A DNA stretch of 62,599 bases, counting the filler, from Kipferlia bialata (Eukaryota): NCBI GenBank assembly GCA_003568945.1. It is 5 parts of 5 records of this genome, joined end to end, with 100 filler letters (N's around TTAATTAATTAA, not from the genome) between each part and the next. Parts side by side here need not be neighbours in the genome. Positions count along the whole stretch, not along the records: positions 1 to 13,785 come from BDIP01000897.1; positions 13,886 to 27,667 come from BDIP01000898.1; positions 27,768 to 41,548 come from BDIP01000899.1; positions 41,649 to 55,426 come from BDIP01000900.1; positions 55,527 to 62,599 come from BDIP01000941.1. The stretch is one strand, 5' to 3'. Made by a program: the position numbers and the translations under genes. Shown here one piece after another: positions 5,991-62,450 of this stretch (positions are counted from its first letter, which is position 1; each line of letters opens with the position of its first letter). Below the pieces are notes generated by a model that was not told the origin of the DNA, ran no database searches, and saw only the letters and a program-made list of their open reading frames with translations.

Positions 5991-8900
5991 CTACACCTTC
6001 TTGGCCCTACATGCTGGGCATATACTGCTGTTGGACACACCCCCTGTTTCGAAGCACGCCTCGTGGATTAAGTGCTTGCAGCTGCGGCACCGGACAGTGG
6101 CGTCTGAGAATGCAAACATGTATGGTGGCTGCTGGCATACTCTACAGAGCTGACCCAGCATGGGGCATCTACTGCACGACTGGACGTGTCCTAGCAGTGC
6201 CTTGAGGAGGGAGCCCACCGTGGTGGAGAAGTCCCCCCTGAGCACTGCCTCTATGTCACCCTGGGCCCACATGCGGCACGTGCCCTTGTCGGGTAGGGTG
6301 AGGTGCTCCCCTAGGCCGTGGGAGAGAGTGGCCTGTCTCAGCAGGGCCCTGCCCCCATGATGCATGCACCCATTGAGCACAGGCTGCACCCTGGCCAGCT
6401 GGTGCCGCAGACGCCTCCCCTCTGCAAAGCCATTGTGCCTGAGTAGGGTAGATGGCATGGCCTGTTCGGGGATGGAGGGCAGGGGGCGGTAGGCAGAGAC
6501 GTAGTCATAGGCCGCAGTGCACACTGGCTTTGGGGTGGCATCAAGCAGAGATACCATGCGGGCAGGGAGGGAGAGGGAGAGGGAGCCTGGGGGGTGAGTA
6601 TCTATCCATATCACCAATAGTGTGCGTATTCTGTCCACACTTATCCGTACATATATATATAAGGATGTCTCAATACCTGACATGCACTGTCTGCAGTACA
6701 GCCTTTAGATACCCATGTATATCCATCCATCCATCTATATCTATATCTATATATATATATATATAGATACCTGACATGCACTGTCTGCAGTACAGCCTAT
6801 AGATACCCATACATATACATCTATTCATACATATATATATATCTATATGTCTCAATACCTGACATGCACTGTCTGCAGTACAGCCTATAGATACCCATGC
6901 ACATCCATACATCTATCTATATCTATATCTATATATATAAGGATGCCTCTATACCTGACATGCACTGTCTGCAGTACAGCCTTTAGATACCCATGCACAT
7001 CCACCCATCTATCTATATCTATATCTATATATACAAGCATGCCTCTATACCTGACATGCACTGCCTGCAGTACAGCCTGCCCGTGTACCAGCAGAAGAGG
7101 GGCTTATCTCTGGTCACAGTCATGGACACCCGGCACCAGGGGCACAGGTTGCCCTACAAGTCAGTGTATGCACAAGTTCACGTATTTAATGTAGAATATT
7201 ACAGCATGCCCATACCTGTGCTGCTAGTGCTATGCCCCTGCCCTCGAGGTCCCCTGGCTCCTCATGCACCATAAGGGACAGAGGGGAGGTGACACCCCGA
7301 GACACAGGGGGGCGGAACAGGGCTGGGGGTGAGAATACCAGTATATATTTGTTGCATAGTATAGTATATACATATATGTATACATGTGTGTGTGTGTCAT
7401 ACCTATCCTGGGGTCTGGCACCAAGGGTGTCTGTGCAGGTGGGACAGGGACCGGCTTGGTGTCCCTAGGGGGCTGGAGCAGGATGGCCTCGCTGTCTGTG
7501 AAGTATCTGAAGGCAGCAGGGGGGAAGGTGGTCCCGTCCTCCTCATACTGTACATCCACTGTCCACCCATCCAGGGCACCCTCCGCCATGCTCTGCTCAG
7601 ACTCTCTCTCTCTCTCTCTCTCCCTCTCCCTGTCTCTGTCTGCACTTCCGTCGTGCCCCAGCTGTCTCAGCCTCTCCTGGTGTCTGCTAAGGGCCTCTCT
7701 CTCCACCTCCTCGGCCAGGGACAGGTGGCTGGGGGCCACACTGAAGTAGTTGAGCACGACCTGGGCCTGGGACACCTGGATGGTAAGGATCATGAGCATC
7801 ACTGTAGATATATATGGTACAATGGCTGGGGCGTGCTATTAATACACATACCTTAGTGTAGAGTATGGGGTGGGGCCCTACTAGTGGGTGGAATGGGTGG
7901 GCCTGGGGGGTGGGCAGAGGCACCCTGTCCTGGGCAGCCTCTCTCTTGCTCTCTCTCCTCTCCTTCCCCTTCTCCCCCCCTCTCCTACCCAGCTGTCTAA
8001 CTGGCACCCCAGTCACACTGTGCCTCACACTGTCCAGGAACGACATGATATCCACGTTCCTGTCCCTCACGCTGTCCTCCCCACTGCCCCTGTCCCCGTC
8101 ACTCATGGAGCTATCACCGCTTAGGGACATGTGCCTTCCTAGGGTGCTGTCCCTCCCTAGGCCACCCTCACCCTCACTGTCACTCTGCACATACAGGATG
8201 TCTCTACCGGGGGCAGCGTAGGAGGCCTGGCTGCTGCTCATATGGCGCCTATTGTGAGTACTATCAGTATATACACAAAGGATGTACACGTCTATATAGT
8301 ATACATAACATACCTGTGAGAGTACTCGTCGTGCCTCCTCCCGCCCTGCCTGGGACTGCCGTGCCAGAGAGAGACATGGGCATGGGGGGAGAGGGGGGGT
8401 CTCTCAGGCGAGGGGCTGTCTCTACCTGGGTATGGGAATCCCTCTCCATCGGAGTCCTCTCCCTCTATCTCTCTCTCCTCTCTCTCCCTGTCGCTGAAGG
8501 AGTCTCCGTCCGACAGCACCCTCTCCACGCCTAGCACACCCTCTCTCTCTCCATCCTCATCCCCATCCAGGTCATCTAGGCCTAGGGCACCGTCTCTCTC
8601 CCCCTCTACACCCTGTCTGTGGTGGTGTCTGCTATAGGGCTGCAGACCTCCGTTGGGGTGGTGGGACCCTAGGATGTGGGCAGGGATCAGGGAGGAACCC
8701 TCACTCTCGTCGTCCCCCTCCCTCTCCCTCTCCTCAGCATCCACCATGTCACCACTACCCCCTGCCATGAGTGCAGCCCCCACTGCTGAGGGGCTGAGGG
8801 TGGATGACTGTCTAGCTAGTAGGTTCTGCCACTGGTGGGTCGAGGACTCAGACCCCTCTGACAGGTCAGTGTCTGAGTGGGACGCAGAGTGCGACAGGTA

Positions 8901-11900
8901 CCGGTCACTCCCATCCTCCTCACTCTCCATGGCATCAGCTAGACCGGCTAGGAGGTCGTTGGTCTGCGCCTGGCACCTGGGGTAGGTATAGGGAATCTGA
9001 GAACACCAGAAATATCCGTAAAGTAGTAAGTAAGTACGCAGCATCTACGAGAATATATGCATATAGTAGTGGTGATACCTATAGTGCGACACGTAGTGTG
9101 GCTCGTAGGCCATGACTGGGTTGACAGGGGGTGCCGAGCTGATGACATGGCCTAGACCCAGGGAGCTATCGGGGGTGGCAGACACTGGGGGTGAGGGTAT
9201 ATACAGGGCACACTACGGAATGTGTAATATGACTACGTCTATATATACACTATACCTCCCGGTAGACTGGCCGATGCCAAGAGTGTCTCTGCCAGTGTGT
9301 CTGTCTCCGCTGTCACTCCATCCAGGTCACCCAGGTCACCAAGGGACTCCAGAGACAGCTCAGAGAGAGAGCACACGTCAGACCCCTCGTGTGCTGTAGA
9401 CTCCTCCTCTGCCTCTCCCTCTCCCTCATACTCCTGATGCTCAGACACACCATGCTCTGTGTCTATGACACCCTCTCCAAAGTCGGCACCCATGGGAACG
9501 GACCCGGCCTTGGGGGTCTGGGGGTGAGGGGATGGTGCACATATGTTAACGAGTGTATATAAACGAAGGGTATGTACCTTAGTCTTGCCCCAGAAGAACG
9601 GGAGCTGTGCGAGGGATATTGATGAGAGAGACCCCATGAGGGAGGGTGAGGATGGGGAGGGAGAGGAGGGGCCAGGGTGGGGCCGAGGGGGTGTCTGTGC
9701 CTGCTGAGCCCTGGCCACTGCCATTGATACTGTCTCCCCCTCGGCCTCACTCTCGTCTGTCTCCTCAGACGACGACAGCACTGTCTCTGCCTCACCCACC
9801 GCTGCAGGCGCAGACACAGGCAGGGTGTCCCACTCACGGGCATCCACCCCTAGCTGCCTGGGGTCTAGGTCCAGTCCTGTTCCCTGACCCCTGCTAGGTA
9901 CCTTAGATACCTTAGACACCTTACTGACACTGGGTCTGACTGGGGATGTCTTACCCTTGCCCCGTGTGTGCTGGGGGGACGGGTACACAGCAGAGGTGGT
10001 GAGCCTTGTCTGTTCAGGCTGTGCCTTGAGGCCTGGGACAGACTTGGACATTGTGCCAGTGCTAGTGACACTAGAGGCACCTACCACCTCCCCCTCCACT
10101 TCCCCCTCACTCTCCTCACTCTCACTCTCTGTCCCGTCCAGTCTGTGTCTGAGGGTGGATACACTGGGTACAGTCCCCTCCTCATACACAGTCATGGGTC
10201 TGAGTCCACCGGCCATGTTCACTTCAGTGAGTCTCTCAGCACAGCCCATCACCCTGGGGTTGGGACAGATACACACATACATAGATACATACAATACATG
10301 TTATACTCGCTCACAAATACGATAGGAGTCGAGACACAGAGGAAGACGGATAACTGATAGCTAAACCTGTACCATACTCACTATACTATGAACTATACAC
10401 TATACTGTACCTGTGGTAGAGAGGCATCTCCCTGATGATGCTACCGGGTGAGAAGTGTGTGTTGACCACGTCGTTGTTACAGGGCATGTGCAGACAGGAG
10501 AAGAGCCGCAATAGCATTTTGTCCCTCAGACACATCCTGAGGGGTGAGACAGATAATGAGAGAGAGAGAGACTCCCATTCTTCCTGAAGAGAAGGGGGGA
10601 GGAGGGGGGGGGGTACTGTCCCACTATAGACTAGTGAAGCCAATGGAAAGTGACCTCATTGTACCAATATACAAGGCAACCCACCTCATGAGGACTGAGA
10701 CCTGTCTGTTGTCGATGGTGCTCTGCTTCACAATCTTCAGGTGCTGCTGCAGCTTGGCGTCACCCCTGACATGGTGAGATGGGGTACTCTCTCTCTCTCC
10801 CCATGTGTCTCGGTCTATCTATACTATATCTATACGTACCTGACTGCCGAGACACACTTTGTCAGACACGGCAACTCTCTCTCTGCCTATCTATACCTAT
10901 CTATATATATATGCCTGCCTATCTATCTATCTGGCTATCTATACATGTATGATATGACTGTACCTGACTGCCGACACACTTTGTCAGACACGGCATCTCT
11001 CACATACTATATATATATATATATCTACNNNNNNNNNNNNNNNNNNNNNNNNNNNNNNNNNNNNNNNNNNNNNNNNNNNNNNNNNNNNNNNNNNNNNNNN
11101 NNNNNNNNNNNNNNNNNNNNNNNNNNNNNNNNNNNNNNNNNNNNNNNNNNNNNNNNNNNNNNNNNNNNNNNNNNNNNNNNNNNNNNNNNNNNNNNNNNNN
11201 NNNNNNNNNNNNNNNNNNNNNNNNNNNNNNNNNNNNNNNNNNNNNNNNNNNNNNNNNNNNNNNNNNNNNNNNNNNNNNNNNNNNNNNNNNNNNNNNNNNN
11301 NNNNNNNNNNNNNNNNNNNNNNNNNNNNNNNNNNNNNNNNNNNNNNNNNNNNNNNNNNNNNNNNNNNNNNNNNNNNNNNNNNNNNNNNNNNNNNNNNNNN
11401 NNNNNNNNNNNNNNNNNNNNNNNNNNNNNNNNNNNNNNNNNNNNNNNNNNNNNNNNNNNNNNNNNNNNNNNNNNNNNNNNNNNNNNNNNNNNNNNNNNNN
11501 NNNNNNNNNNNNNNNNNNNNNNNNNNNNNNNNNNNNNNNNNNNNNNNNNNNNNNNNNNNNNNNNNNNNNNNNNNNNNNNNNNNNNNNNNNNNNNNNNNNN
11601 NNNNNNNNNNNNNNNNNNNNNNNNNNNNNNNNNNNNNNNNNNNNNNNNNNNNNNNNNNNNNNNNNNNNNNNNNNNNNNNNNNNNNNNNNNNNNNNNNNNN
11701 NNNNNNNNNNNNNNNNNNNNNNNNNNNNNNNNNNNNNNNNNNNNNNNNNNNNNNNNNNNNNNNNNNNNNNNNNNNNNNNNNNNNNNNNNNNNNNNNNNNN
11801 NNNNNNNNNNNNNNNNNNNNNNNNNNNNNNNNNNNNNNNNNNNNNNNNNNNNNNNNNNNNNNNNNNNNNNNNNNNNNNNNNNNNNNNNNNNNNNNNNNNN

Positions 11901-12930: not shown

Positions 12931-13480
12931 TTATGCCTTGACCTTCTTGATCGTACCGATGGCCACGGTGGCGTCCTCAGCACGCAGGATGAAGCGTCCA
13001 AACCTACACGTGAGGAACGAAAAACACAAAGAGGGATATAGTACATATAGATAAAGACTATAGGTATACCTCTGGTGGACGCTCTTCTTGTCGAAGGCCT
13101 CGAGGCACACGGGCTTGGCCAGCTCGATGGTCACGGCACAGGAGGAGCCGGGGGTCACGAAGCTGGGCTTCTTGGTGACAACAGCACCTGGAGTGAGGGA
13201 GAGAGAGAGAGAGATGAGAGCACAATACTGTGCTTATGCCACTCATACCTGTCTTCTTGTCGAGCTTAGCCAGGAGGTGAATACTACATACATAGAACAC
13301 TATCATATACATATACATATGTATAAGTACCTGTCTTCTTGTCGAGCTTGGCCAGGATGTGCTTGATCTTGCACTGGCACTGCACGGCATGGGAGTGGAA
13401 CACAAACTCAGACCCGCTGGAGATGACGTTCTTGGCCTCCATGATCATGAGGGTGGAGGTGAAGGAGGTGCAGTGCTGGG

Positions 13481-13522
<42 letters not shown>

Positions 13523-13885: not shown

Positions 13886-13932
<47 letters not shown>

Positions 13933-14339: not shown

Positions 14340-15983
14340 ACCCTTAATGTCAGGACAAGGAGGATGGTATCCACGAGAGGTCTGAGATGCTAGCTGCCAC
14401 ATGCCTACCCATAGCACCCCCGATGCGGTACCTGGCACCGGAGTGCATAGTGTCTCAGGTAGTGGGTGTTCAATAGTTATATAAATACTATATCCACCTC
14501 CCTCACTCTCCAGGCTGCCGGTATCTCCTCCGACATCTATGCCCTGACCCTCATGCTGCTCAACCTGTTCAGCGTGGAGGCCCCACTGCGGTACGGATAT
14601 CTAGTATCGAGGACCCTATATGTAGTACACCCTTGCGCTAGATCTTTACATTTCTTATTGGTCATAATGATGTGACTGGCTGACCCCAGCCCTCCCCGCC
14701 GCCCTGGCTGTGAGGAGTGTCCGTCTGACCCTCAGGACGTGATATCAGCTGCACAGAGGGGACTGGGTGAGTATCACTGTTATATACAACTATATAACAG
14801 AACACAGTTTATTATTGTGTACTCTTTGAGGAATAGAGTGACATGTGCGCTGATCTACAACTATCAACTGGGTTCCCGCTCTACCCCTCACCCCTAGGGA
14901 TAGGCGTCCCAGCGACAGGCACCCTGGACTCCCTGTCAGACTACAGGAGTGCCATCATACAGCTGCACACTAGGTGGGGACATCATTTATATGTCAATAT
15001 ATACATATATGTATTTCTTTGTATAATATATAGCATACATATTGGCAAGTACCCCCCTCACCCCCCAGGCTAGCGAGGGACACTGCCCCCCCAGCCCTGG
15101 AGGGCCTAGCTGAGGTGCTCTCTAGGATGCTGGGGAGAGATGCCGCAGAGAGGCCCCTAGCCTCCAGACTCCTACTGGACGAGACCCTCATCAACAACAC
15201 CACCAGGGTGGTGCGTGTGTGTGCCTCCCTCCCCCATGTAGAGCTGGAGGAGAGGAGGGGCAGGCTCAGAGAGGAACTGCCCAGACTGCTGGCAGAGACG
15301 GAGGTGCGGGTGGTAGAGTGTGTATAGATCAAATATATGTATATATGTATGTGTGTGTGTGTGTGTGTATACCCCCCATACCCACCCCAGGTCGATGCCA
15401 CAACCCTCAGGCTGAGTGTGCTGCCCAACATCAGGTGGGGGTATCTCTGCGTGATCCAAATGTATACTTACAATCATGCATATATACTCCATCTCCCTCT
15501 CCTCACCGCCCAGGGACTCCATCGCCGACCTCAGACTGAACGATGTCTCTCTCCCTGTCTACTGCACATGCCTGAGACAGCTGGTGGAGAGGACAGAGAG
15601 AGAGAGAGAGGAGAACCCAGAGCCAAAGGCAGAGGCAGAGTCTGATGAAGAGGGAGAGAGAGAGGGAGAGGGAGAGAAGGGGAAGCACGGGCTGTGGAGT
15701 GAGGGAGACTTCATAGGTATGGTATACTTCATTCTCTCTCTCTCTCTCTCTCCCCTCTCCCCCTCTCTCTGAATGTACAGGCGAGTGGGTCCAACCTGTT
15801 GTGGCCCTGGCCGAGGGTGCCAGACCACCCCTCTTGCAGAGTGTGCTGAAGCATGCACTGGACATACTCATCATGACAGGGCACGAGGTAGGGGGCGGTT
15901 ATGTATACACTATGTGCCCCTCATCTGCCCCTCACCCCTAGGACACCGCCCTAGCCTGTGCCCTACTTGGTGTTCTCTCTCTC

Positions 15984-16016
<33 letters not shown>

Positions 16017-16303
16017 ATATATATATACACCCCATATCACCTTAGGACACTGCCCTAGCCTGTGCCCTACTTGGTGTTCTCTCTCTCCCTCTCTCTCTCC
16101 CCCCCCCCCCTCTCTCTCTATATATATATACCCCATATCACCTAAGGACACAGCCCTGGCCTGTGCCCTGCTAGGTGTCAAGGGTGGCCTAGGGGGTGTG
16201 GCTGTGGAGACTGATGCCCTGAGGGCACTATCAATGCACGTGGGACAGTGGTCACTGGACAACCTCCACAAGTGCGTGTATCTCTCTCTCTCTCTCTTTC
16301 TCT

Positions 16304-16340: not shown

Positions 16341-16705
16341 TCTTACTCTCTAGGTCCATCCTCCCCGCTGTCCTTGAGTACTCTCTGTCCGATGTGTCCA
16401 GACTGAGGAATGGCCTGGTGTGCCTGTCCAAGATCAGCAGGGTGGCAGAGGACAGGGTGGTATGTGGTAAATGTATAAGTGATATACACTCATAGACTAC
16501 TATGTTCTATATAGTGTATATATAGTATCCTGTGAATGATACCTATATACTCTTCCTTCTCTATTATGTATGTCTGTCCAAGATCAGCAGTGTGGCAGAG
16601 GACAGGGTGGTACGACATCGTATACATGCAAACACATATGATTCTTACAACACATACTCTCTCTCTCCCCCCCCCCACCCACCCATATTCATAAGACCCT
16701 TCCAA

Positions 16706-16742
<37 letters not shown>

Positions 16743-17547
16743 ATCCTAGGTTGCCAGCCACGTGACCCCTGCCATCGGTAGGATAGCTGCCCTAGCAGTT
16801 AAGACTAGACCCACTGCTCTGGCATGCCTCTCACTCATGAGGTCACTCTGCAAGGTGGGGTTATACAGGCACTGTATACTCTGACTCTTATCTAACTTCC
16901 CTTGCCCTCCACTCACCCCAGGGTGAGGATGTCCGTACCACCGCTCTCTTTGTCCTGCCCCCTCTCCTGACCCACTTTGTATACGCAGAGGACGTGCTGC
17001 AGCCTAGGTATATATATATATATGTGTGTATGTCCATCTGAGTGTCTGTATGTATGCATCCACCATTAACCCCAGGGAGCTTGAGGCTGTGCTTGAGACA
17101 GTGGCAGACGCCATGGAGGCACTGGTCGACACAAGGTGGGGAGGTGTCTGCTCTAACTCTATATGGATTGAGCGAATGTCTATCCTGACCCCAGGCGCAC
17201 TGAGCTAGATGACCAGATCCATGCCCTGGTCAACAAGCCACAGGGCCAGGTGGGGTAACGTACATACATACACAATTACAGTCACATTAGTGAGTGAGAA
17301 ATTTTGGTAGTATGTACCCTCTCACCCCCAGGACTCCCCCGCCTCTGTGACCCCTGCCATACAGACACCGGACGGACCCGCTCTGCACCAGGTAGTGCAT
17401 ATATATATATATATATATATGAGTATGCATACATATGATATACCTCTCACCCGCAGATCCACCGCCCCCCTACGTCTGTGCGCAAGGCCCCTGTCTCTAG
17501 CACCCTACAGCCCACACCAGCCAGACAGGTACAGGGGGGAGATACAC

Positions 17548-20163: not shown

Positions 20164-22562
20164 CTAGCCCTTTGCATCTCCTGTCCCTGAGTCCACAGGG
20201 TCTAGGGGATTGACCTGACCTAGTGGTAGAGGTATGGGCTCAGTGATACATGGGGGCAGGGCCTTGGACCTTAGGAATGAAGGGATGTCTGGGTAGGTGG
20301 TGTGGTCGAAGGAGCCCTGGCGGTGAGATAGGGTATTCACTGAGAGAGACGACTGCCGAACTACCTGACTGAGGAACCTCTCCACCATCCCCCCCACCAT
20401 ACCACTCAGACACATGACGGGGTGGGGGGCAGGGAGCACAACACTGTCTCCCATCCCATGGACAGCGGTGCGGCCCACACCCACCTTGCCGTCATTGGGA
20501 CCTGGGGTCAGATGGGGTATACATGTATGTACAGCTCTTGATAAACATCAATAGTACATTGTGACACATATATGAGGAGATACCCACCTGGTATCAAGAG
20601 GGACAGGAGCCAGTTAATTGTCCAGTTTCCAGCTATGACACCGCAGTCAAAGGACACAGGGGGGAGGGAGTTGGGGACGGAGTCAGAGCCAGTGCCTGTG
20701 GGGTGAGAGGCAGAATTACTCAGAAGACTGGAAGGCCTTGCTTCTATACTCTCTTGGACTTGACCCACCTAGGCTACCCCCTGCTTCCCCGTTCATCCAC
20801 TGGAACAGCCACCAACTGCCCAGTGCATCAACCACCTCACTGCCTATGGGTGAGGGTATAGGTAGGGTAGTAGACGTTATAGCATGTATTTCAATATGAA
20901 TACAGGCTAGATGTACCTTGGTTAGGTGGCCCCAGCATGCAGACTCTCCCAATGGGTGGCATGGGTGTGGCATCACTAGTGGCAGAGGGTACACTGACTG
21001 ATACACAGGAGGGATCAGCTGTAGATGAACAGGTTGCCGAGTCGTTCTCTCTCTCCTCCTCCACCCCTGCACTACACACCGAGTCACTCACTACTGTATC
21101 ACTCAGTATGTCGGTGATGGTGGCAGAGTGGGGAGAGACATTGTGTATCTCTGCCTCTATTAATACCCCCCTCTCTCCCTCAGCCGGTCTGTCCTCCCGT
21201 ACATCGTACGGGTGGAGGTGCGCTAGGTAGTAGCGGGTCTGGGGTGAGGAAGAGGAACAGTATTTATATCACAAGAATTGTACCTGCACGTCAATGATAT
21301 ATACACCTCTACGCACCAGTATGCCCCCCATGCTGTGTGTCACAAAGTGGATCTTGGTGGCACCTGAGTGTGAGGGATAAGAGAGAGAGATGAAGGAAAG
21401 GAATGACACCGGGAACATATAGATCTATAGACTATACACGGCTACGGTTATGTAATGTAGAAGGCATGTATAATTGTGTCCACAGTCAAAGTGCAGTCAT
21501 AGAGTATCCAGTCTGTACCTGCCTCTCTGCACATCTGGACAGCACACATCAATCACACATACAAAGTATAGCATGTACTAGAGAATGCCTGTATCGTTGT
21601 GGCCATTAGATCTGGTGTGTATGTTCAGTACCTGCCTCTCTGCACATCTGGACAGCAGGGGCTAGGTACTCGGCAGTTAGAGTGCTGGGTGTAAGTACTT
21701 TCACTTATGTATAGGCCTAGTAATATTGTAATGAAACTTTGAGTAGTATATGATGCATCTATCCCCCCACCTTATGTCCTTCTGGGTGGACGGGTAGTCC
21801 ACCAGCACTGTGCTGTAGCCCTTGTCCCTCAGTCTCCTGGCCAGTCTGGTCATGGATCGACTGGACCTGATGAGACCATGGACCAGAATGACATACTCAT
21901 CGCCAACTGGGAGGATGAGAGAGAGAGAGAGAGAGAGAGATGACATACTCATCGCCAACTGGGTAAGAGAGATGGGGGGGGGGGAGAGAGAGAGAGAGAG
22001 AGGGAGAGAGAGACGATAGGACTCATCACCAACTGGGTCAGAGAGGGGAGATGGGGAGAGAGGGAGAGAGAGAGGGAGATGGGGGGTGGAGACGATAGGA
22101 CTCAGCACCAACTGTGTCAGGGGAGAGAGAGAGAGAGAGATCTTAAGGAGATGAGTGTCAGAACAGTAGGAAAGAAACTGCGTGGAGTGGGAGGTGGGAG
22201 AGAGAGAGAGAGAGAGGTAAGCCACTGGGAGTATAGTATAGTACAGAACGAGAGAATACTATTGAGGGGAATACCTTGCTGTATATGAGCCCCCTCCCTG
22301 CCCCTCCTCCCCTTAAGCTGGGCACCAAGAGTGACCCCTGCCACGGCTAGGGCACTTCGCACAGACAGAACAGGCATCTTGCCTGGGTTGGAGGGTATAA
22401 CACTACAACACAAACACATATGTCTATGATACATAGAGAGAGTCAAAGTGATGCTTGGAGAGAGGAACTATGCTTACATGCATTACCTCTTCCCACCACA
22501 AGCAGAGCGGTGAGTAGCAGGGTGCCCCCCAGCACTACCAGCCATTGCTCAGCATACACCAT
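20164..22562 (-). CDS. Alpha/beta-fold hydrolase (lipase/esterase, bacterial type) with N-terminal signal/anchor
   Basis: VILVHGLIRSSRSM..GYSTVLVDYPS..IHFVTHSMGGILVR..MLGPPNQGSEVVD..GVIAG..LIPGPNDGKVGV..PHP; first exon MVYAEQWLVVLGGTLLLTALLVVGR splices in frame. Confidence 0.85.
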
Positions 22563-24169: not shown

Positions 24170-24627
24170 GTGCTGACCTGTGAGCACCACCAGCAGGACA
24201 CTACTGATCATCTCTGTCACAGCGTATCTCTCTGCCTGCACCGAGGTTGTCACTGAGAGGCCGTACTCCCTCTCCCCCTCCCCCTGCCCCCCCTCGCACT
24301 GGTCGTCCCCTGAGTCCCCATCCACAGCCCTGGCCATAGCGTCACTGTCCCTGATGGAGGATAGACCCGTGTGGTGTCTGACTGGGTGGCCTAGGGGTGT
24401 GACGCTGGGGGTGTGCTGGTACTCTTGGTGGGCAGAGGCCGAGGCAGAGGCCGAGGCAGAGGGGGGGAGGGAGGAGCGGGGGGTGTTCTTGTGCATCCTC
24501 TTGAGTGCCCTCGAGGACCTGATATATCAGTATGGAATCGATGATAATATATATATCATACTCTATATATGAGAATACTATTAATATATGATCCTGACCT
24601 GACTGCCCTTGATATGCAGACATACCT

Positions 24628-24671
<44 letters not shown>

Positions 24672-25031
24672 CAGTGTCAGTATCGATAGTGTATTATACT
24701 GATACTACTTACTGACCTGACTGCCCTTGCTATGCACACACACCCGAAGAAGAAGAGGGCGCCAAACAGACACGTGGCTATGCCATTGACAACCTGAAGT
24801 GAGAGGGAGTGGGAGAGAGAGAGACAAAGGGTACAATTGGACCCAGAGAAGAGAGAGAGAGCATACTAATTACAAACACACTGACCTCATACTTGAGTGT
24901 GCCGTCTGCACACATGGTGTCTATCACCTTCATCATTCTGATGTGCCACTCGGCATCGGAGTCGCCTGGGGTGAGGGGCAGAGCATGTGGATAGAGGTGG
25001 AAGCAATAGTAATGTGTAACAGATAGATGCA

Positions 25032-25067: not shown

Positions 25068-26251
25068 GGGGGGGGGGGAGGGAGGGGGGGGGGGGGGGGG
25101 GGGGGGTAGAGATTCGGAGAGATGGAAGGAATGTCTGACATCCAACGTGACACGTGAGAATAAGAGTGGGGACAGAGAGAGAGAGAGAGATGACCGTACC
25201 CAGAGAGAGGTCTGAGGCTGCCAGGACTGCTGCAGAGAGGAGTGTGTGGCAGAGAGAGGCAGACTGGGTCAGCACACTGCGGTAGGAGGACACAATGGGG
25301 CCCATGCCTAGGGGGTGAGAATATGATGGTACTAGTAGATGGTGTATACAATACATACTACTAAATTGATACACATAGTGTGTGAATCACCCACCTGGTA
25401 TGCCGTTGAGGGAAGACACATGACATTGGATAGTATAGCATATATCTCTAGCTATCTATCTAGCCATGTATACATACATGTATATACACCACCCACCCGG
25501 TATGTCGTTGAGGGATGACACGACCTGTGCCATCCTCTCAGCCAGGACAGCAGACTCATCAAGGGCAGCCATGGCCTGGGGGTAAGAGAGAGAGTGATAC
25601 CAGAGAGTAGATATAGAGAGTAGATATACTCTAACGATAGAGACAGTCTCCATATTGCTACAACAGCACCCACCTGGACACCGACATCGAAGTGGAGTGC
25701 CCACACAAACAGGACCATGCTCTGCAGAGAGGCCTCCCTCATACGGAAATAGGCAGTCAGCATGTGCTTCTCCACAGCAGCTGGGATCATAGTGGCCTGT
25801 GGTGGGAGGGGGTCATAGAGAGGGGGGGGGTGTATGTGTTATACAAGTGAAGTGCACAAGAGAGTATCTACTTCCTATACGTGTATATACCACTCTAGCA
25901 CCGCAACCAGTGAATGATTGGTCCTCTAAACCACTCATGCAGTACCTGTGCTGTCTGTCCGTAGGCTGGCTGGGCCTGTACCTTCGATGCCACCTCCTGC
26001 TGGAGGTTGCAGAGGCTAGTGATGCCAGTCTTGGCCGATGTGAGCAGGGTCTGCACATCTCCCTTGCTCACAGCAGCCACAGCCTCGTCTGTGCTGGTCT
26101 GGTCGGTCACATACTGGTTGTAGCTGACCAGGAGTGTCTGTAGAAGAGTGGTGAGAGCTGCCTGGCGTGCAGAGAACTGCTCAGCCTCCTTTACTGTGGC
26201 CTCTGTGTATCCATGGCGAGCCGTAGGGGCTGCGGGGACAGCTGACTCCAT
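22903..26251 (-). CDS. Hypothetical protein: N-terminal helical region + C-terminal multi-pass membrane domain (could be two genes)
   Basis: Spliced TM segments such as VVNGIATCLFGALFFFGCVCI, ITNIVFACFFLVFGVWYLVL, WIFSLMVVAGLLFLVYVLYLLF and IFPCLILEIVLFLGFG; ATG at 26251. Confidence 0.5.
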
Positions 26252-26555: not shown

Positions 26556-27551
26556 ATGTCTGGTGCGTCTCCCATCTCGAGCACGTCTGGTCGGTCTCTG
26601 CCACTGCGGTTCCAGAATGCCTGGCCATCAGTAGCTAGGGAGCGGCAGCAGACAAGGGAGGTGCACGCGTCATTTGCGCAGACACGGAGTCCCCCAGCTG
26701 CACAGGCCTCCAGAGGGTATGAGAGTAGTAAGCCCCGATACAATGCTGCGTCTGTCCCCTTGACCCCCACCTTCCCCTCGGTCACGTCGGGTATCCTAGA
26801 CCTACCGACACCCTCTAGGGGTCGCCAGGAGGGCGGGTACTCCCCCCAGCTGGCCTCCCCCCAGATGATCATGGGTCGTTCCACTGCAGTGAAGGAGGGA
26901 AAGGAGCAAGGGGTGGCCCATCCACGCACTGGGTCCAGACACGGCCTGACAGCCACCATATCCAGTGGCAAGGACGTGTCGCAGGTGTCCTCTCCCATGC
27001 CGATCAGACACACCCGGGGCATGGAGATGAGCACCCTGGACGTGCCCATCTCTGAGACACTCCACAGCATGTGGGGCAAGACACCCGCACAGACACAGGA
27101 CACACCTCTGGACAGGACACAGCTGGGGAGGTCGGGGCTGCCCCCGATGGGTGTGGCACCTTCCACACCATCCTCTGCACAGGGGACTGGGGCTGGTGAC
27201 CTGGCCACCAGGGTCAATGCAGAGACCAGCATCAGACTCAGGTGGGGGATGTATAGGATGGCTCATTGTGGTGTGGTGTTGTATTATCTTCACTATTTGG
27301 GGTACTTGTCTTCTATTCGGTGTATATTGCCGACTCGTAATACTGTATTCATTCTCCCCTCCTCCCTCACGCTCTGTACTCTGTGTAACTCACCTCAGAG
27401 ATCAGCAGATCAGTGCCCCTCTATCAACTCTCTCTCTCTCTCTGTATACTATCTGTTACTGACACTAGGGACCAGCAGATCACTGCCCTCCTGCAGAAGA
27501 ACACAGAGCTGAGCAGGGCGGCACTGCAGCCATCCACAGACCCGGCTGTCA
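26556..27551 (+). CDS. 5' part of hypothetical Ser/Pro-rich protein leading into a coiled coil; truncated at contig end
   Basis: ORF MSGASPISS... to donor near 27242; next exon DQQITALLQKNTELSRA. Confidence 0.55.
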
Positions 27552-41740: not shown

Positions 41741-43775
41741 GCACCCTCCTCCTCCTGGGGTGAGATATATATACATAGATATATACGTATACATATATAT
41801 ATAGAGAGAGAGTATATATATACATATATATAAAAATATAGGACCCTCCTCCTCCTGGGGGGGGGGTGAGGGGGTAGATGAATACATATATATGTGTATT
41901 GGTGATTGTATACAGATCTATGTATTGCATGCATCATATATACATATACACTACTCCATCTTGTCCTGATACCAGCTCTCCTCTTCTCCCTATATATAAT
42001 ACTATTGACTGTGACTGTATATAAATCATATATATCATTGATATACCATACACAGTATACCTTGGATGCCTCCTCTCCTCTCTCTCTCTTCATGTATTAG
42101 TGTGAACACGAACATAAAACATATAATTTTACCATATATTGTATACCTTGGATGCCTCCTCTCCTCTCTCACGGGCAATGCGCTTGTCAGCGGCTCTGGG
42201 ATGAGTTTCTATGTTCACAAAAATGAAATATACATGTACGCATAGTATGAATAGATTGTGCACAGTCAGAGGCTACCGGCAGAGGACACCAGAGAATATA
42301 TAACTATAATAGGAGTATATATATATGTATATAAAGAAGTATATATAGAGATATACACATGTATTGTTACCTCTTCTTCCAGAGGCTACCGGCAGAGGAC
42401 ATCAGCTTGTCAGTGCCACCAAGGCCACTGGGGTGAGAGGATATATGTGTATAATTACATATATACATTAGTTACTATATATATACGTATGTATGTGGGT
42501 GTCAGTGCCACCAAGGCCACTGGGGGTGAGGGGTAGGGGGTGGATGAGGAAGACTATGTTACTGGCTTATATGGTTCCCTATGGTATACAGTGGATAGTC
42601 ACTGCAAACCGGCCCACCTGAGGGGGTTGCTGGTCACCTATATATTTTTATATATATGACTGGGTTGCTGGTCATATATATATATATACCTGAGGGGGTT
42701 GCTGGTCAGACCAGAGCTGACATGGCTATCGATGAGAGTGGCCCTCTCGTCCTACAGAGTCAGATATACATAAATAATAGCTAGAGTCAGATATGTATAT
42801 ATATATATAGAACATATATAAGACACATATATATAGAACATATATATACTTGACTAGTATATAGAACATATAGAACATATATAATGCATATAGAGCAACG
42901 AGATAGCATATACTGTGTATGAGAGTGGCCCTCTCGACTCCTACAGAGTCAGAGACTGATGCATAGTGCATATCCGATATAATGAGAGAGAGAAAGGCCC
43001 ATGGACACAGCACAGATGTATATACGGTGTAATAAGAGAGAGAGACTCCACTACACGTACGACATATATATAGAACATATATATACATAAACATACATAT
43101 AACATATATAACACATACATTGCATATATTGAGCATCTAGATAGCATATACTGTGAGACTCCACTACACGTACGTCGTTGGTGTTCTCGTTGTGGGGACT
43201 TGATAATGACAGAGATACATATACTACATAGTAGGAAGAGCCAGAGGTCTAGTTATAGTAAGATACTACTACACGTACGTCGTTGGTGTTCTCGTTGTGG
43301 GGGGAGATGAGGTCACGGGTGGCGGAGAAGGACCTGGGCGTCAATGACTATATATTCATATATATATATTTATATTAACATAAATGTGGTCTGCATACAT
43401 ATACCAGGTGGCGGAGAAGGACCTGGACGTCAATGGGTAAATAGATACTCACGGAATAATAGGAGTATTACACGCATATATAAATATGTGTGTGTCACGG
43501 GTGGCGGAGAAGGACCTGGGCGTCAATGGGTAAAGAGCAATGCATGTATATCATGTATAGAGATATATCATATTGGCGGGCGTCAATGGGTGAATTAAAA
43601 CTCACAAGAAGAATGTGTTATTCTGTGAGAACACATACATATACATATATATTCACTCATCTCTATGTACTGCATACATACCGACCGACCTGAGGACAGC
43701 GTGCAAGGTGTGCAGTTACACCATACACATATATCACGTACTGTATACAATATATACATTATATTACTATATTAT

Positions 43776-43813
<38 letters not shown>

Positions 43814-44838
43814 TACTATACAATACATATATAATATATACCTGAGGACAGGGTGCAAGGTGTCCAGTTACACCATACACATATATCACGTACTGTACAC
43901 ATAGTGTACATTATACTACGTTATTACACAATACATATATATACTACGATATTACACAATATACATATATATTATATAATACATATTATACAATATATAT
44001 ATATACTATACAATATATATACATATATAATACATACCTGAGGACAGCGTGCACGGTGTGCAGGTTCTTGAGCTCTCTCTTCTTCCTCTCCTACTGGTAA
44101 GAGGTGAGAACAAGTATTTCATATACATATACAAGAACGCAAACAGCATGATGATCCAATGGCGTGTAACATATTGCAGTCATAATACATACTATATCAA
44201 AACATTGTGACCCACGTGTGCTGCTGTGTTCTTCATGCAGTATTTATATACTCATATATATATATGTATATGTGTGTATCTATATTAATACATTTCTATA
44301 TATATATATATATATATTCATATTTACATATATATACCTGTGCAGCAGTGTTCTTGATGCAGTAGATGCTGAACACAACCAGCTCGGCTATGCAGAGCAC
44401 GCAGCCAACAAGGGCGTAGATGTGCTCCTGGGGTCAGAGAGGTAAGCTAATACACTATTCATATGAATGAAATAACACAGTATATTCATATACTAAGATA
44501 GTGTAATATTCATATGAATGAAATAATACATTCTCACAATAATACATGATTTACAAGGCGTAGATGTGCTCCTGGGGTGAGATAGGTAAGATAATACACT
44601 ATTCGTATGAATGAAATAATACATATTCATATACAAAGATAGTGTAATATTCATATGAATGAAATAATACATACTCACAATAATACATGATTTACAGGGC
44701 GTAGATGTGCTCCTGGGGTGAGAGAGGTAAGACATTATAATATATAATAATATATAATATATAATATAATAATAACACGTAGTAATATATTCATATGAAT
44801 GAAAATCATATGATTTAAAAGGGGCGTAGATGTGCTCC
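41720..44838 (-). CDS. Fragment of a microexon-rich hypothetical membrane protein in long TA-rich introns
   Basis: Exons EHIYALVGCVLCIAELVVFSIYCIKNTAAQ / ERKKRELKNLHTVHAVLR / SFSATRDLISPHNENTND / DERATLIDSHVSSGLTSNPL. Confidence 0.5.
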
Positions 44839-45151
44839 TGGGGGGGGGGGGGGGGGGGGGGGGGAAAAAAGGAAAAACAANNNNNNNNNNNNNNNNNNNN
44901 NNNNNNNNNNNNNNNNNNNNNNNNNNNNNNNNNNNNNNNNNNNNNNNNNNNNNNNNNNNNNNNNNNNNNNNNNNNNNNNNNNNNNNNNNNNNNNNNNNNN
45001 NNNNNNNNNNNNNNNNNNNNNNNNNNNNNNNNNNNNNNNNNNNNNNNNNNNNNNNNNNNNNNNNNNNNNNNNNNNNNNNNNNNNNNNACATGGCAGTGCT
45101 TATTATCCCTACCCCCCCCCCCCCTCCCCCTTCCCCTCCCCCTTACCCTAG

Positions 45152-56944: not shown

Positions 56945-57287
56945 GTGGGTGTCACTGGGTTGGTTGTTGTTATAAGCAGTGTCATCACATTGTTATTCGA
57001 TCCGGTCTCTCTCTCTGCCACATCTTTATATATATGACATTGGCCCATGTACCCCCCCCCCCCCCCCCCCCCACCCCCCCAACTCTCACTCGGTAAACAA
57101 TATACACATACTAGTGGATCCACATATATATTGAGTGGACCAGCCTTGGTAATACAGATTTACCCCAACGTGTATAATATCAGACAACGATAAATGTGCA
57201 TACGTACTCACATACACTTATATACACAGGGGGAGATGGAAAGAGTACAGAAAATACCCAAATACAAGAGAGATACAAGTGACCCAC

Positions 57288-57831: not shown

Positions 57832-58569
57832 GACAGCCAGAGTGGTTCAACCCTTTAACGCGAAACACAAACACACTTCACTCAGTGACACAATGAGGCG
57901 AGGTCAGGCTAGGGGCACATCACCCCGATACTTGCGTATCTGGCAAGAATATCAGCCGGCCGGAGCATCACCGTCATTAGGGCACTTGCGGGAGAATCCG
58001 GAACAGAGAGGAGCCGCGGATCCCATTTCTGCTTCAATTTCGGCCAACGAAGCCACAAGCAAAGGGCGGCCGCAATTCTCTCAGAATGTGTACTACAAGG
58101 TTGTCCAAGTATGCGGGGGTTATCGTTCACTTCAAATGTCCCCCTTAAAGGCCTTCTTGCATTCCTTGCTCTTGATGGTCCTTAAGAGAGAGGAGGAAAC
58201 GATTTTGAAGATGTGACCCTCACTTCACCAACCTTTCTGCCAAATAGACAACAATTTGTGTGACTAACAATCACTGTCACACAATACAGTCACACAATCG
58301 TCACTCAAATGCGTTTGTCTGGGACACCGGAGAGAGCAGAGGCTTTGTGTATATGGTGGATCTCGCCTTTGAATCCAAGATAAGAAGAAAGAGCGAAAAT
58401 TCAAGTCATGATGAATCTGACTTATTAATAGAAAGATCAACAGATGACTTGTTTTTCACTCAGAAAGTAGTGTCTATTTGTCCCTCAATGCGTTGGTTTC
58501 TGATGATATGTATGGTATGAACAGACAAATCTCCATCCATCAACGATATCTCAACAGTATTTATAGTAA

Positions 58570-59088
58570 TTAACAATGGTGTCCCGTCACTCTACCCCCC
58601 GATGTGCCTTGTGCATTTGCGTATGTGCTGGCACAGCATGGCCACAGACTCTGCATCCAGGGGGGTGTACCTATGGTGAGTGTACAGCAGACAGTATGCA
58701 AGATTATATATATATATATAGAGAGAGAGAGAGACATAGACATAGTTATGTAGCATACCTGCATGCATCTGAGAACTGGTCCCAGTAACTGCCGCACACA
58801 CATCTGACATAGGGCAGAAGGGCCACCCTCAGATGCACACCCTCACAGACAGAGGAGGGGGGGAGGGTCCAGCCACCTGAGGAGTTAGTAGATAGTTCAA
58901 TGCATAGGCAGCGCATACATGTATAGTATATATATGTGTGTGTAACACCCTCACACACATGGGAGGGGGGGAGGGTCCAACCACCTGAGGAGTTGGTATA
59001 CATGCATACATGCATACCTTGTCTCCATATCTGCATTTACCAAGAGACCTTGGCCTCACTCCTTGTCAATATATACGTATATGCTATA

Positions 59089-59124
<36 letters not shown>

Positions 59125-60152
59125 GTATGTATACTATCTCCATATACTGGCACAGTCCTAGTCCCCGTCACTCGTCATCCCAATACATATGTACACACTA
59201 TACACGATATGTATCATACATATACATACATACCTAGTCCCCCCTTAGGTACATCACTTGTCATGCCCAGTGCCCTGGCACAGTATATATCGATATATAT
59301 ATATATATATACCATCATATGTATACACTATACATGCAACGGTATATACCTAGTCCCTTCCCATCACATGTCATACCCAGTGCCCTGGCACAGTATGTCT
59401 GGACCTGCTCGTGGAAGGACAGCAGCTCGGTCTGATAGTAAGCATCACACATCTATGTATATAACACATGTATAAACTAGTAAACTGTAATACACGAGTC
59501 TGAAGGACAGCAGCTCGGTCTGGGGTCGAGAACACTCTCTGTCTCTATACTAATCTATCTATATATATATACACTATTTTACATTATATCATTATACTCC
59601 TTTGCCATGTGTATATATGCACTCATACATACATTCATGTATATCAGTAGGTATACATGATACACGTACCCTCGTCTCCTGTGCCATGTGTATGTATGCA
59701 CTCTGGGGGTTCTTGTCCAGAACACACCGGTACAGCACACTGAGGTGAGGGGAGAGGGGGGGGGGGGGTCCGTTGGGGTAGATGAACTACTGTAATACAT
59801 ATAGATACATTGATACAAAATACGTGATACACTGGTTAAGTAATGACTCGATTATCCACCTAGCCACATTTGACAACCCTGTCAATGCCCCCCTGAGTGC
59901 CCATGGGTGTACTCTGCCTGTCCTGACACACACACTGGACAGGGTGGACACTAGGGTGGAGATCCTGGGGTTGGTATATATATATATATATATTGAGAGA
60001 GAGAGAGAGAGAGATAGAGAGAGAGACTGGACAGGGTGGACACTAGGGTCGAGATCCTAAGGTTGGTACCTATATATATATTGAGAGAGAGAGAGAGAGA
60101 GAGACAGACTGGACAGGGTGGACACTAGGGTGGAGATTCTAGGATAAGTATG

Positions 60153-60184
<32 letters not shown>

Positions 60185-62450
60185 TAGAAGTGACACACAG
60201 GCTGGACAGAGTGCATACTCTGGTGGATTTCCTATTGTTAGTATATGTGTAGATACAGTGTCCAGCTTTGAATCAGTAAGGAATGGAGACGGTCAATGCG
60301 ACCACTACACCAACAGTTGGTAATTGCATAAAGGTGCCTCGAAGTATCCACCCGGACACCTAAAAGAATGCATAGCTATACACTACCCTATGTACCTGAG
60401 TCCAAATGGCCCCTGTGCCACTGACCCCGACATAGAGGGGGCCTGGGGGTGAGGAAGACGACGTATATATACACATACATAGTAGCCACCATATGCATCT
60501 TCAATTCAATACTACGGATATTGAACACACATCCCCACCTGCCCCAGTGGACTGAGTGCCTTAGGCCATTTACTACCACATAAGTATATATATATATATA
60601 TTTGTATATATACACCCATACCTGCCCCAGTGGACTGAGTGCCTTGGCCTGGAGGGCGGACAGGTGCTGCAGGGTCTGGGGTGGATGTTACACAGATATA
60701 CAGTAAAGAATACACACACACAAGTATATGCATATAGACACTATATACATATATATATCCATACCTCTGCACTCTCTGTGTGGAACAGGTATGCCAGTAT
60801 CTCTCCACAAGTAGTACAGGCAGTGCACAGGATCTGAGGAGGGTGAGTGTTTGTGGTGCTATTGACACTATGTACACTGTACATTGCGAATACCAATACA
60901 TACCTCTGGGTCCTCGACTGCATCCACTGTCTCGACCAGTACATATACATATCTGATACACAAACATACATATCACTATATATATATATAGTACAGTACT
61001 CATATACCTCAGGGTCCTCGACTGCATCCACAGTCTGGGCCAGTATACGCACAACTGGAGGTGAGGCATGGGAGGGGGGTTGCACACAGATAGAGAAAAC
61101 CCGTTCCCACATTGATATATGAACGCAGTATCAGTATCAGTAGTGTACCCTTTCTATACTCTCTGAAGATATGGAGGTCTATCTACAGCAGTATATCACT
61201 CCACTCTATTATGAATAGTACTATACTCACACTCCCATACCTGCATCAATGAGAGCCGGGGCACTCCACTTCTCTGTGTCCTCATCCCCATGGAGGGACA
61301 GGGCCAGTCTACAGTGAGAGGGCAAATACATAGAGACTCTATGTGATAGAGAAGTAGTATATATAGTATAGAATAGTATATATACTGATACTGAGTCCTC
61401 ATCCCCATGCAGAGACAGGGCTAGCCTGGGGTTAGCGGTATTTTCACTTCTATATATGTGTATGAATAGTATGTACAGGACCAAACCCGGCAGTCACCAC
61501 GCAGATACAGGGCCAGTCTACAGCGAGTCAGAGGGGAAGGTATACATACATAGGAGTGTACAGACATCAGTCACCAGCAAGAAGGCACAACTCAAGGCTA
61601 TGACAGTATATCGCCAGTGGTTACACTACACTATATCCCCATACCTCTTTCTGAGCTGTATGTGTGACACCAGTGACCTAAGGACACATACACTGGGGGT
61701 AGGAGGAGAAGGGGGGGGGGTAGGAGGGTTGATACAGAGGACTGGCTACATTCCCAAACATGGTCAATGTACTCTCTTGAGACTCCTACACGTACAAATC
61801 CGAGTGGTCCACCGACCCTTGCTGGTCAGTCCAGTGCGACCTGGGGGTGAGGTACGTACACGGGTGTGTATGTATATGTGTGTGTGTTTGGATGTATATG
61901 AGATATATGAGATACTCCCTGGGTCTGTCCAGTGCGACCTGGGGGTGAAAAGAGAACATACAGATGTATGTATGTATGCATATGAGATACTCAACAGTCT
62001 GTCGACTGTGCATAACGTCTAGATGTACCTCAGCGTTGTATCCCGCAACGGCAGGTATAAGTGAATTTATATGTATAATGATATGTATTATATGATATGT
62101 ATCAAACATTGTATGAGTGTATAGTGTGTCATCGATACCTGAGCACTGCGTCCTGCAATACATCAATATATAGATATAAAAATACATAATACACACACAT
62201 ATATATACATATATATATATATATAATACATACACACCTCAGCACTGCGTCCTGCAATGCATCACACGAGACAAGCAGGGCATTGGCCTTGCCTGGCAGT
62301 TAGTGAATGTATACTCAGAATACATACTATGACTGTCATTAAAAGGATGGTGGGTGATAGGACAACAGGAGTGCGTTGCCTGTGGCAAGATGTGTGTGTA
62401 TGTATATACTGGATACCCACTCACCAAACCGCACTGCCTGCTCTGTGGGC
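58570..62450 (-). CDS. Microexon-rich hypothetical protein, partial
   Basis: Exons such as LALSLHGDEDTEKWSAPALIDA / VVRILAQTVDAVEDPE / ILCTACTTCGEILAYLFHTESAE / ISTLVSTLSSVCVRTGRVHPWALRGALTGLSNVAR with ctcaccccag-type acceptors. Confidence 0.5.

What the first reader, a model, noticed from the sequence alone, without database searches (positions are those of the whole stretch)
6674..62260. Pervasive 'splice-junction echoes': introns contain copies of the adjacent exon end together with its splice site
Seen in at least 7 unrelated genes on all five contigs. Donor-side echoes: 6674-7080 (5 copies), 10838/10961/11968, 13247/13328, 16421/16569, 21516/21629, 24594/24712, 25391/25493, 42058/42144, 43688/43840/44036, 60537/60619, 60901/61005, 62137/62235. 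Acceptor-side echoes: 15940/16044/16146, 21890-22115 (4 copies), 44410-44840 (4 copies), 58860/58965, 59935-60140, 61830/61928. Each is about 20-40 nt of exon plus the GT or AG, separated by (TA)n/(GA)n-rich spacers. Inference: a recurrent duplication process centred on exon-intron boundaries, perhaps microsatellite-driven slippage or recombination. It would expand introns and create competing splice sites, and could help explain high intron density. I know of no named element with this pattern.
Basis: partly seen in the sequence, partly recalled or inferred. Interest (0 to 1): 0.82.

Follow-up and report, generated by a model that had tools for sequence, protein, structure and literature searches.

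The report
Spare exon ends inside protist introns
In this stretch of the genome of the protist Kipferlia bialata, about one intron in six carries a spare copy of the neighbouring exon's end with its splice signal, set off by an AT-rich spacer; the copies are likely scars of DNA-break repair, and where RNA could be checked the cell splices past them.

Summary
Real. The window is Kipferlia bialata. All 18 listed loci are present; 23 of 135 curated introns in 8 of 18 genes hold 12-47-nt copies of the adjacent exon end, against 0 of 348 exon-interior controls. They are clustered (6/6 and 7/13 in two genes, 0/42 on contig 3), not on all five contigs. Read-derived DNA contigs bridge 7 of 10 echo sets at normal depth, and a spliced contig uses the exon-adjacent sites in 4 echo introns, skipping upstream acceptors that score as well or better in 2 of 3. 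Anatomy: exon, AT-rich spacer, echo with intact GT/AG (36/36), then a normal intron. Spacers form no element family. Best reading (0.45): break repair in a lineage lacking Ku70 and Rad51 but holding Pol theta, later amplified by unequal crossing-over. Echo-versus-exon differences are synonymous-biased (30/53; P 0.016-0.07), hinting at diverged-allele templates. Echoes lengthen introns; no intron gain seen. The scan noted a similar pattern once in a sea-urchin gene.

The parts
6587..7050 (-). Intron with 4 donor echoes (28 nt exon end + GT) at 6677-6704, 6771-6798, 6859-6886, 6955-6982; array of 88-96-nt units; host gene ends in a Rubicon-homology domain
   Evidence: Pfam PF13901
10766..11970 (-). 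Intron with 2 donor echoes (10840-10873, 10964-10996) and a 922-N gap that may hide more copies
13188..13330 (-). Intron of an eEF1A/eRF3-type GTPase gene with one donor echo 13249-13279
15888..16146 (+). Intron with 2 acceptor echoes (15942-15973, 16046-16077); all differences from the exon synonymous; echo acceptor stronger than the one next to the exon
16460..16749 (+). Intron with donor echo 16568-16609
21364..21631 (-). Intron with donor echo 21519-21544 (26 of 26 identical)
21907..22274 (-). Intron of an alpha/beta-hydrolase-like gene with 3 acceptor echoes (21940-21963, about 22021-22037, 22089-22120) between GA/TC repeats
24519..24716 (-). Intron with donor echo 24599-24626
25308..25496 (-). 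Intron with donor echo 25397-25419
27242..27468 (+). Intron with a diverged acceptor echo 27400-27418
41755..44337 (-). Gene of unknown function whose 6 complete introns all carry echoes: donor 42061, 42267 (stops 9 nt short of the exon end), 42618, 42662 (partial), 43174, 43690, 43842, 44217; acceptor 41843, 42500, 42919, 43407, 43494; reading frame open with the exon-adjacent sites
44428..44864 (-). Incomplete intron at a scaffold gap with 3 acceptor echoes in 125-144-nt units (not among the 135 introns counted)
58877..59349 (-). RNA-checked intron with donor echo 59252-59286, a scrambled mini-echo near 59137-59170 and acceptor echo 58945-58984; removed as one 473-nt intron
59432..59669 (-). 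RNA-checked intron: partial donor echo 59597-59624 and acceptor echo 59502-59519; the stronger upstream echo acceptor is skipped
59965..60395 (-). Intron with 3 acceptor echoes of increasing age (60026-60056, 60104-60137, 60191-60227)
60443..60621 (-). Intron with donor echo 60539-60567
60834..61007 (-). RNA-checked intron with donor echo 60904-60941; first donor used
61309..61644 (-). RNA-checked intron with acceptor echoes 61391-61424 and about 61507-61527; both skipped
61841..62237 (-). Intron with donor echo 62139-62165 and acceptor echo 61922-61938

Best explanation
The echoes are real, unused copies of exon ends with their splice signals, and they are likely scars of DNA-break repair: one broken end would copy across an exon-intron boundary from an intact copy of the locus and then be joined to the other end by polymerase-theta-type end joining, with an AT-rich, partly templated spacer between them. 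Shown: the layout is exon - spacer (33-170 nt) - echo (12-47 nt of exon plus GT or branch point-AG) - ordinary intron; the outer sites are the ones spliced where RNA was checked; multi-copy arrays are tandem copies of the (echo + spacer) unit. Inferred: (1) breaks arise in TA/TC-rich intron DNA; (2) copying stops about 30 nt (median; range 16-54) after covering the boundary; (3) the spacer is new or heavily rewritten at the event; (4) events that leave an intact exon, donor and acceptor survive, perhaps because AU-rich spacers mark the echo as intron; (5) unequal crossing-over between echo and exon end then builds arrays. Whether the template is the sister chromatid or a diverged allele is open.
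For: Junction specificity and controls. Interior and intergenic duplications nearly absent (uniform model predicts about 40 for 30 junction events). The exon-adjacent spacer is more AT-rich than the piece beyond the echo and than echo-free introns (first 45 nt 0.74 vs 0.65 vs 0.58, paired P 0.026; last 45 nt 0.62 vs 0.54 vs 0.52, P 0.04), an asymmetry a plain duplication would not give. Young events are identical across the boundary for 11-19 intron bases and then switch abruptly (43163-43197/43268-43302, 43042-43061/43155-43174). Patchwork signs: 4 of 24 donor-side copies stop short of the exon end, a scrambled mini-echo near 59137-59170 (output), and one spacer is a degraded copy of another 238 nt away (42888-42917/43126-43155). 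Spacers of different loci are unrelated (best z 3.4 among all pairs of 29 spacers). Repair toolkit: the ortholog table of PMC8516963 lists for K. bialata PolQ, XPF, four Dmc1, five Rad52 and Spo11 but no Ku70, Rad51A, PARP or Lig3. Precedent: extended break end joined by Pol theta gives tandem duplications in C. elegans (PMC7368036 Discussion); Pol theta mixes templated and untemplated additions (PMC4912351 passages). RNA and DNA contigs as.
Against: No experiment or second strain ties the echoes to Pol theta. Median Pol theta insertions are 7 bp, far shorter than these spacers, and the C. elegans duplications are about 10 kb. The model does not itself explain why the intron share of the duplicate is so short (exact share <=6 nt in 11 of 12 donors, versus 28% expected under uniform placement). 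It does not explain the synonymous excess (30 of 53; 22.1 expected for a self-copy, P 0.016; P 0.07 within events). Spacers decay about 3 times faster than echoes in arrays and 8 of 27 keep degraded similarity to the neighbouring intron end, which fits plain duplication. Only 4 of the 23 introns are RNA-checked; the others rest on open reading frames. No inverted (snap-back) copies of exon ends were found.
Confidence: 0.45

Rival explanations
1. Diverged-allele repair: the echo plus the ordinary intron beyond it were copied from a different, functional allele whose intron had diverged, and the spacer is the stump of the resident allele's broken intron. Homology then stops at the splice signals because only exons and signals are conserved between alleles.
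For: Echo-exon differences: 30 synonymous of 53, pS 0.154, pN 0.038; ratio 0.24, event bootstrap 0.14-0.39, below the 0.5 floor for a neutrally decaying self-copy; base-conditioned P 0.016. Replacement changes are conservative (mean BLOSUM62 0.04 vs -0.59, P 0.03; 0 stops vs 1.1 expected). GT kept in 20 of 20 and AG in 16 of 16 copies. Several echoes have a well-formed acceptor unlike the one used (shared suffix 2-3 nt in 5 of 12). Spo11 and Dmc1 are listed for the species.
Against: Within-event test P 0.07; GT/AG retention is unremarkable if echo decay is about 4% (P 0.06-0.12). No variant letters in the DNA contigs over 5.4 kb. Echoes of the contig-4 gene show 2 synonymous and 5 replacement changes and some echoes have frame-breaking indels. 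It needs allelic introns to be unalignable while exons are nearly identical. Later recombination between alleles could give the same bias without a hybrid origin.
Confidence: 0.22
2. Plain tandem duplication of a 70-150-nt unit by slippage or unequal crossing-over. Units longer than the 80-nt introns must span a junction; fast decay of TA-rich DNA then hides the intron part.
For: Repeat periods are close to intron length; arrays are clear tandem copies; spacer parts of arrays differ at 48 substitutions + 18 gaps per 484 nt vs 6 + 1 per 166 in echo parts, P 0.0009; residual anchored similarity in 8 of 27 (combined P 1.6e-5).
Against: Many echoes with no substitution from the exon sit beside spacers that align poorly or not at all to the neighbouring intron, far beyond a 3-fold rate difference. 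The two copies are asymmetric in AT content. Shorter duplications inside introns are nearly absent. Synonymous bias unexplained.
Confidence: 0.2
3. A splicing-linked lesion (R-loop or spliceosome-associated nicks about 30 nt apart at splice sites) directs breaks to the junction itself, giving a long target-site duplication with filler.
For: Duplicates end within a few bases of GT and start near the branch point; total length is narrow (median 30 nt).
Against: No direct evidence; 4 copies omit the splice site; strong clustering in two genes; alternatives explain the boundaries without a new activity.
Confidence: 0.07
4. An Introner-like or retro-element inserts at junctions with a long target-site duplication.
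For: Insertion-plus-flank-duplication geometry.
Against: 29 spacers share no family sequence on either strand; no new introns are made.
Confidence: 0.04
5. Assembly or haplotype artefact of a short-read draft.
For: Scaffold gaps and simple repeats abound, one gap lies inside an array; the DNA run laid may be the assembly's source.
Against: Single contigs bridge exon and echo at normal depth in 7 of 10 sets, no variant letters; copies differ by substitutions and indels over a range of ages.
Confidence: 0.02

Closest known systems
Human F7 intron 7 37-bp VNTR spanning the exon 7-IVS7 border (PMC1557585, abstract read)
   Same: Authentic donor followed by silent copies of exon end plus donor; the most upstream donor is used.
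   Different: One locus, donor side, pure head-to-tail units. Here 23 of 135 introns, both donor and acceptor sides, mostly single copies with a spacer unlike the adjoining intron; on the acceptor side the first-met site is skipped.
Pol theta-dependent tandem duplications after aborted SDSA (C. elegans brc-1/brd-1; PMC7368036, abstract and Discussion part 1) and small duplications at staggered breaks (PMC8355091, abstract)
   Same: A duplicated flank joined by end joining, sometimes with templated insertions.
   Different: About 10 kb, or NHEJ-dependent, and not tied to splice junctions; here about 30 nt plus 33-170 nt of spacer in a lineage reported to lack NHEJ.
Direct repeats at intron borders and intron gain by break repair or tandem duplication (PMC11782384 abstract; PMC3265369 and PMC4202315 search listing only)
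   Same: Direct repeats at exon-intron borders read as insertion or repair scars.
   Different: Those repeats (4-30 nt, mean 11.4) pair the two ends of one intron and mark its birth; here the copy lies inside an existing intron, duplicates one border, and no new intron results.
Introner elements
   Same: Many loci with target-site-like duplication at splice junctions.
   Different: Introners are sequence families that create introns; these spacers are unrelated to each other.
AU-rich intron definition in plants (PMC2682935 passages)
   Same: Short AU-rich introns in GC-richer exons; composition could tell the spliceosome that an echo is intronic.
   Different: Untested in Kipferlia, whose spliceosome keeps 87 of 174 surveyed proteins and whose snRNAs were not found (PMC6679479 passages).

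Membership tests
Junction-spanning VNTR (F7 IVS7 type) | First unit spans the exon-intron border and later units carry silent splice sites | tested here: met
Junction-spanning VNTR (F7 IVS7 type) | Head-to-tail units alike over their whole length | tested here: not met
   True for arrays (7051, 44427, 44038, 59964, 16147) among the echo units; spacer vs adjoining intron similar in only 8 of 27 events
Junction-spanning VNTR (F7 IVS7 type) | Copy number varies among individuals | not testable with these tools
   one sample with cover only
Pol theta (TMEJ) duplication with templated insertion | PolQ present, canonical NHEJ not needed | tested here: met
   From a published ortholog table, not my own search: PolQ g1038.t1, no Ku70
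Pol theta (TMEJ) duplication with templated insertion | Insertions templated from nearby DNA | tested here: inconclusive
   Partial and scrambled copies, one spacer copied from another; no inverted copies; most spacer DNA has no traced source
Pol theta (TMEJ) duplication with templated insertion | Microhomology at the joint; genetic dependence on PolQ | not testable with these tools
   ancestral allele and mutants unavailable
Introner / intron-generating element | Inserted sequences form families | tested here: not met
Introner / intron-generating element | Insertion creates a new intron | tested here: not met
   4 echo introns are each removed as one intron in the spliced contig
Recursive (ratchet) or nested twin introns | First splice recreates a site: exon start GT or exon end AG enriched at echo junctions | tested here: not met
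   GT start 3 of 12 vs 26 of 123; AG end 14 of 18 vs 92 of 117; intermediates themselves not testable

The most novel reading that the evidence does not exclude
The echoes are a genome-wide fossil record of recombination between diverged alleles whose introns no longer pair: repair that can use only exon homology leaves one allele's exon end and intron spliced behind the stump of another's. That would be sequence evidence of genetic exchange in a free-living fornicate without Rad51 or NHEJ, a main driver of its intron length, and thousands of natural decoy donors and acceptors that a reduced spliceosome ignores by reading AU content rather than scanning order.
Probability: 0.25. Interest if true: 0.82.

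Novelty: new variant of a known kind. Interest (0 to 1): 0.62.

Why it matters
If the window is typical, roughly a sixth of this protist's introns hold a decoy splice site identical or near-identical to the real one. That makes splice-site choice directly testable with existing RNA reads, above all at acceptors, where the first-met site scores as well or better in 9 of 12 cases yet was skipped in the 3 checked. It also identifies what makes long introns in this genome (21 of 27 introns of 170 nt or more), gives a visible mutational signature for break repair in a lineage reported to lack Ku and Rad51, and warns annotators: a simple gene finder turned many echoes into false micro-exons. It does not bear on intron number.

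Tried and rejected
No whole genome is held, so all counts come from the window. No RNA holder is on record; run X2 is only guessed to be RNA, though its joints are CT..AC; runs X3 and X4 laid nothing, which is no evidence. RNA and DNA checks exist for 57100-62500 only; the contig-4 gene has none. Close relatives were sought with the TSR1 protein: next hits 55-57% over a quarter of the query or about 40% overall, and 12 of 41 metagenome stretches at 29-35%; none usable. Two-step or recursive splicing via echoes: no enrichment; use of an echo site adds 52-374 nt, in frame in 11 of 32, about chance. Inverted copies: only simple repeats. Spacer family: none. Helical periodicity of duplicate length: looked at by eye, unimodal, dropped. 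Uniform insertion with survivorship: rejected. Rows dropped: genes G1, G2, G7, G17, G20 and uncertain first or last introns were not annotated; G13 and G22 (frame not resolved, no echoes) were left out of the codon tests; one low-complexity acceptor hit at offset 40 was removed; array copies sharing a change were counted once; the 44428-44864 array was outside the 135. Literature: searches listed no paper whose title or abstract start describes this pattern in Kipferlia or genome-wide; the genome paper's main text has no word starting 'duplicat'; its supplements were not opened, and file 1 of PMC8516963 could not be read. One search found nothing.
Full report
Source. The window is five scaffolds joined by N-linkers. 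An intron-free TSR1 reading frame at 45153-46316 is 100% identical to KIPB_004276 of Kipferlia bialata, a free-living fornicate. No whole genome was available. The species' draft genome paper (PMC5874029; abstract and 12 passages seen) reports a short-read assembly with 124,912 GU-AG introns and calls the density not especially high.

Observation. A repeat scan recovered all 18 listed loci. I drafted gene models with a small frame-aware predictor, curated 135 GT-AG introns in 18 genes, and checked frames (15 genes without stops, G8 one late stop, G13 and G22 unresolved). Aligning each intron to 40 nt of its own flanking exons gave score >=14 at 18 of 134 donors and 11 of 135 acceptors; controls gave 0 of 348, 0 of 160, 1 of 2673, 4 of 2700 and 1 of 269. 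At score >=12 with 60-nt queries, 23 introns in 8 genes carry 40 copies. They cluster: 6 of 6 in the contig-4 gene, 7 of 13 in the last gene, 0 of 42 on contig 3. A 14-kb-scale self-comparison found one duplication scoring >=14 in 111 echo-free introns, none in intergenic DNA, and only low-complexity coding repeats in exons. A uniform insertion-plus-duplication model with survivorship predicts 1.33 detectable interior events per junction event even after 20% decay, about 40 against at most 4 seen.

Is it in the DNA, and how is it spliced? On 57100-62500, single contigs of DNA run X1 span exon and echo for 7 of 10 echo sets (records 58752-59081, 59129-59768, 60619-61738, 61711-62159; depth 679-893, echo-free record 912); three sets fall at contig breaks by simple repeats. 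No variant letters were listed. X1 may be the assembly's source. A contig of run X2 (guessed RNA, CT..AC joints) skips 58875-59347, 59432-59669, 60834-61007 and 61309-61644, each as one intron, so the exon-adjacent sites are used and the echoes are removed. Contigs drop rare isoforms, so low-level use is not excluded. The other 19 echo introns rest on open frames.

Anatomy. Donor type: exon, GT, spacer (40-170 nt), echo of the last 19-47 nt of the exon, GT, then an intron of ordinary look. Acceptor type is the mirror image (spacer 33-167 nt, echo 12-41 nt). GT follows 20 of 20 copies that reach the exon end and AG precedes 16 of 16; 4 donor-side copies stop 6-12 nt short. Total duplicated length is about 30 nt (16-54). 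The exact intron share is 2-6 nt in 11 of 12 donors and 2-13 nt at acceptors. The echo acceptor scores as well as or better than the exon-adjacent one in 9 of 12 (means 9.4 vs 7.1); echo donors do so in 5 of 12. Of the 3 RNA-checked acceptors the skipped site scores higher in 2 and about equal in 1. The exon-adjacent spacer is more AT-rich than the piece beyond the echo and than echo-free introns. TATATA words are 15 times denser in echo-free introns than between genes (9.3 vs 0.6 per kb). Spacers of different loci are unrelated. Anchored at the splice site, spacer and neighbouring intron are similar beyond consensus in 8 of 27 events, often at about 70% over 25-40 nt; the rest are at background. 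Arrays are tandem copies of echo plus spacer, and their spacers diverge about three times faster than their echoes. Echo introns have median 265 nt against 80, and make up 21 of 27 introns of 170 nt or more.

An unexpected signal. Of 53 distinct differences between echo and exon, 30 are synonymous (pS 0.154, pN 0.038). A self-copy decaying neutrally beside a fully constrained exon gives a ratio of at least 0.5; the observed 0.24 has an event-bootstrap interval of 0.14-0.39 (this ignores base composition). Conditioning on the base change, 22.1 synonymous are expected (P 0.016), or 24.9 when pooled within events (P 0.07); replacements are conservative (P 0.03). Dropping the strongest event leaves 0.29. 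The contig-4 gene does not show it (2 vs 5). This is suggestive only.

Mechanism. Shown: duplication at junctions, spacer asymmetry, outer-site splicing in 4 introns, secondary arrays. Inferred: origin by break repair. PMC8516963 (passages; supplement rows) reports no NHEJ in metamonads and lists for K. bialata PolQ, XPF, Dmc1, Rad52 and Spo11 but not Ku70, Rad51A, PARP or Lig3. In C. elegans an end extended on a template and then joined by Pol theta yields tandem duplications with occasional templated insertions (PMC7368036 Discussion), and Pol theta alternates templated and untemplated addition (PMC4912351 passages, median 7 bp, which is short for these spacers). I give this route 0.45. If the template was a diverged allele, the spacer is the resident intron's stump and the synonymous bias, the two different good acceptors and the halt of homology at the signals all follow (0.22). 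Plain 70-150-nt duplication with fast TA decay explains arrays and residual similarity but not identical echoes beside unrelated, AT-richer spacers (0.2). Why the spliceosome ignores echoes is inferred: first-come choice would do for donors (F7) but not for acceptors; AU-rich intron definition as in plants would do for both.

Comparison and novelty. The nearest known case is the human F7 IVS7 minisatellite; direct repeats at intron borders (PMC11782384 abstract) pair the two ends of one intron instead. It fails the Introner and recursive-splicing tests. The searches listed nothing describing it in Kipferlia or at this frequency; the library lacks most subscription papers. Verdict: a real, junction-specific, two-sided duplication signature; a new variant of known duplication and repair outcomes; interest 0.62.

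Noticed in passing
window 58997-59060 (minus strand): A 44-nt exon-like piece with an acceptor-like end before it and AG-GTATGC after it lies inside an echo intron; it is out of frame, skipped in the spliced contig, and matches no flanking exon: possibly a foreign or very old exon end.
   Followed up: partly
window 57050-57290: Probable mis-join at a poly-C run: a plus-strand Utp14-like gene stops in an intron and a minus-strand gene's last joint in run X2 continues into letters not found in the window.
   Followed up: partly
window 37738-37760: A 12-nt tandem duplication gives two in-frame acceptors 12 nt apart in the CLC chloride-channel gene.
   Followed up: no
window 18207-18220, 31579-31589, about 37826, 41457-41469, about 62028-62047, about 41955-41990: Weak or partial echo candidates below threshold, suggesting a continuum of ages, including on contig 3.
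   Followed up: partly
window-wide: Acceptors mostly have a branch-point-like CTCAC/CTGAC/CTAAC 2-6 nt before the AG, and about 79% of exons end in AG.
   Followed up: partly
window 47169-52400 and 1755-5206: Single exons of 5.2 kb and 3.5 kb in an otherwise intron-dense genome.
   Followed up: no
window 11029-11950, 32294-32856, 44881-45087: Scaffold gaps fall inside introns next to echoes or simple repeats, so echo arrays may be under-counted and may be a cause of assembly breaks.
   Followed up: no
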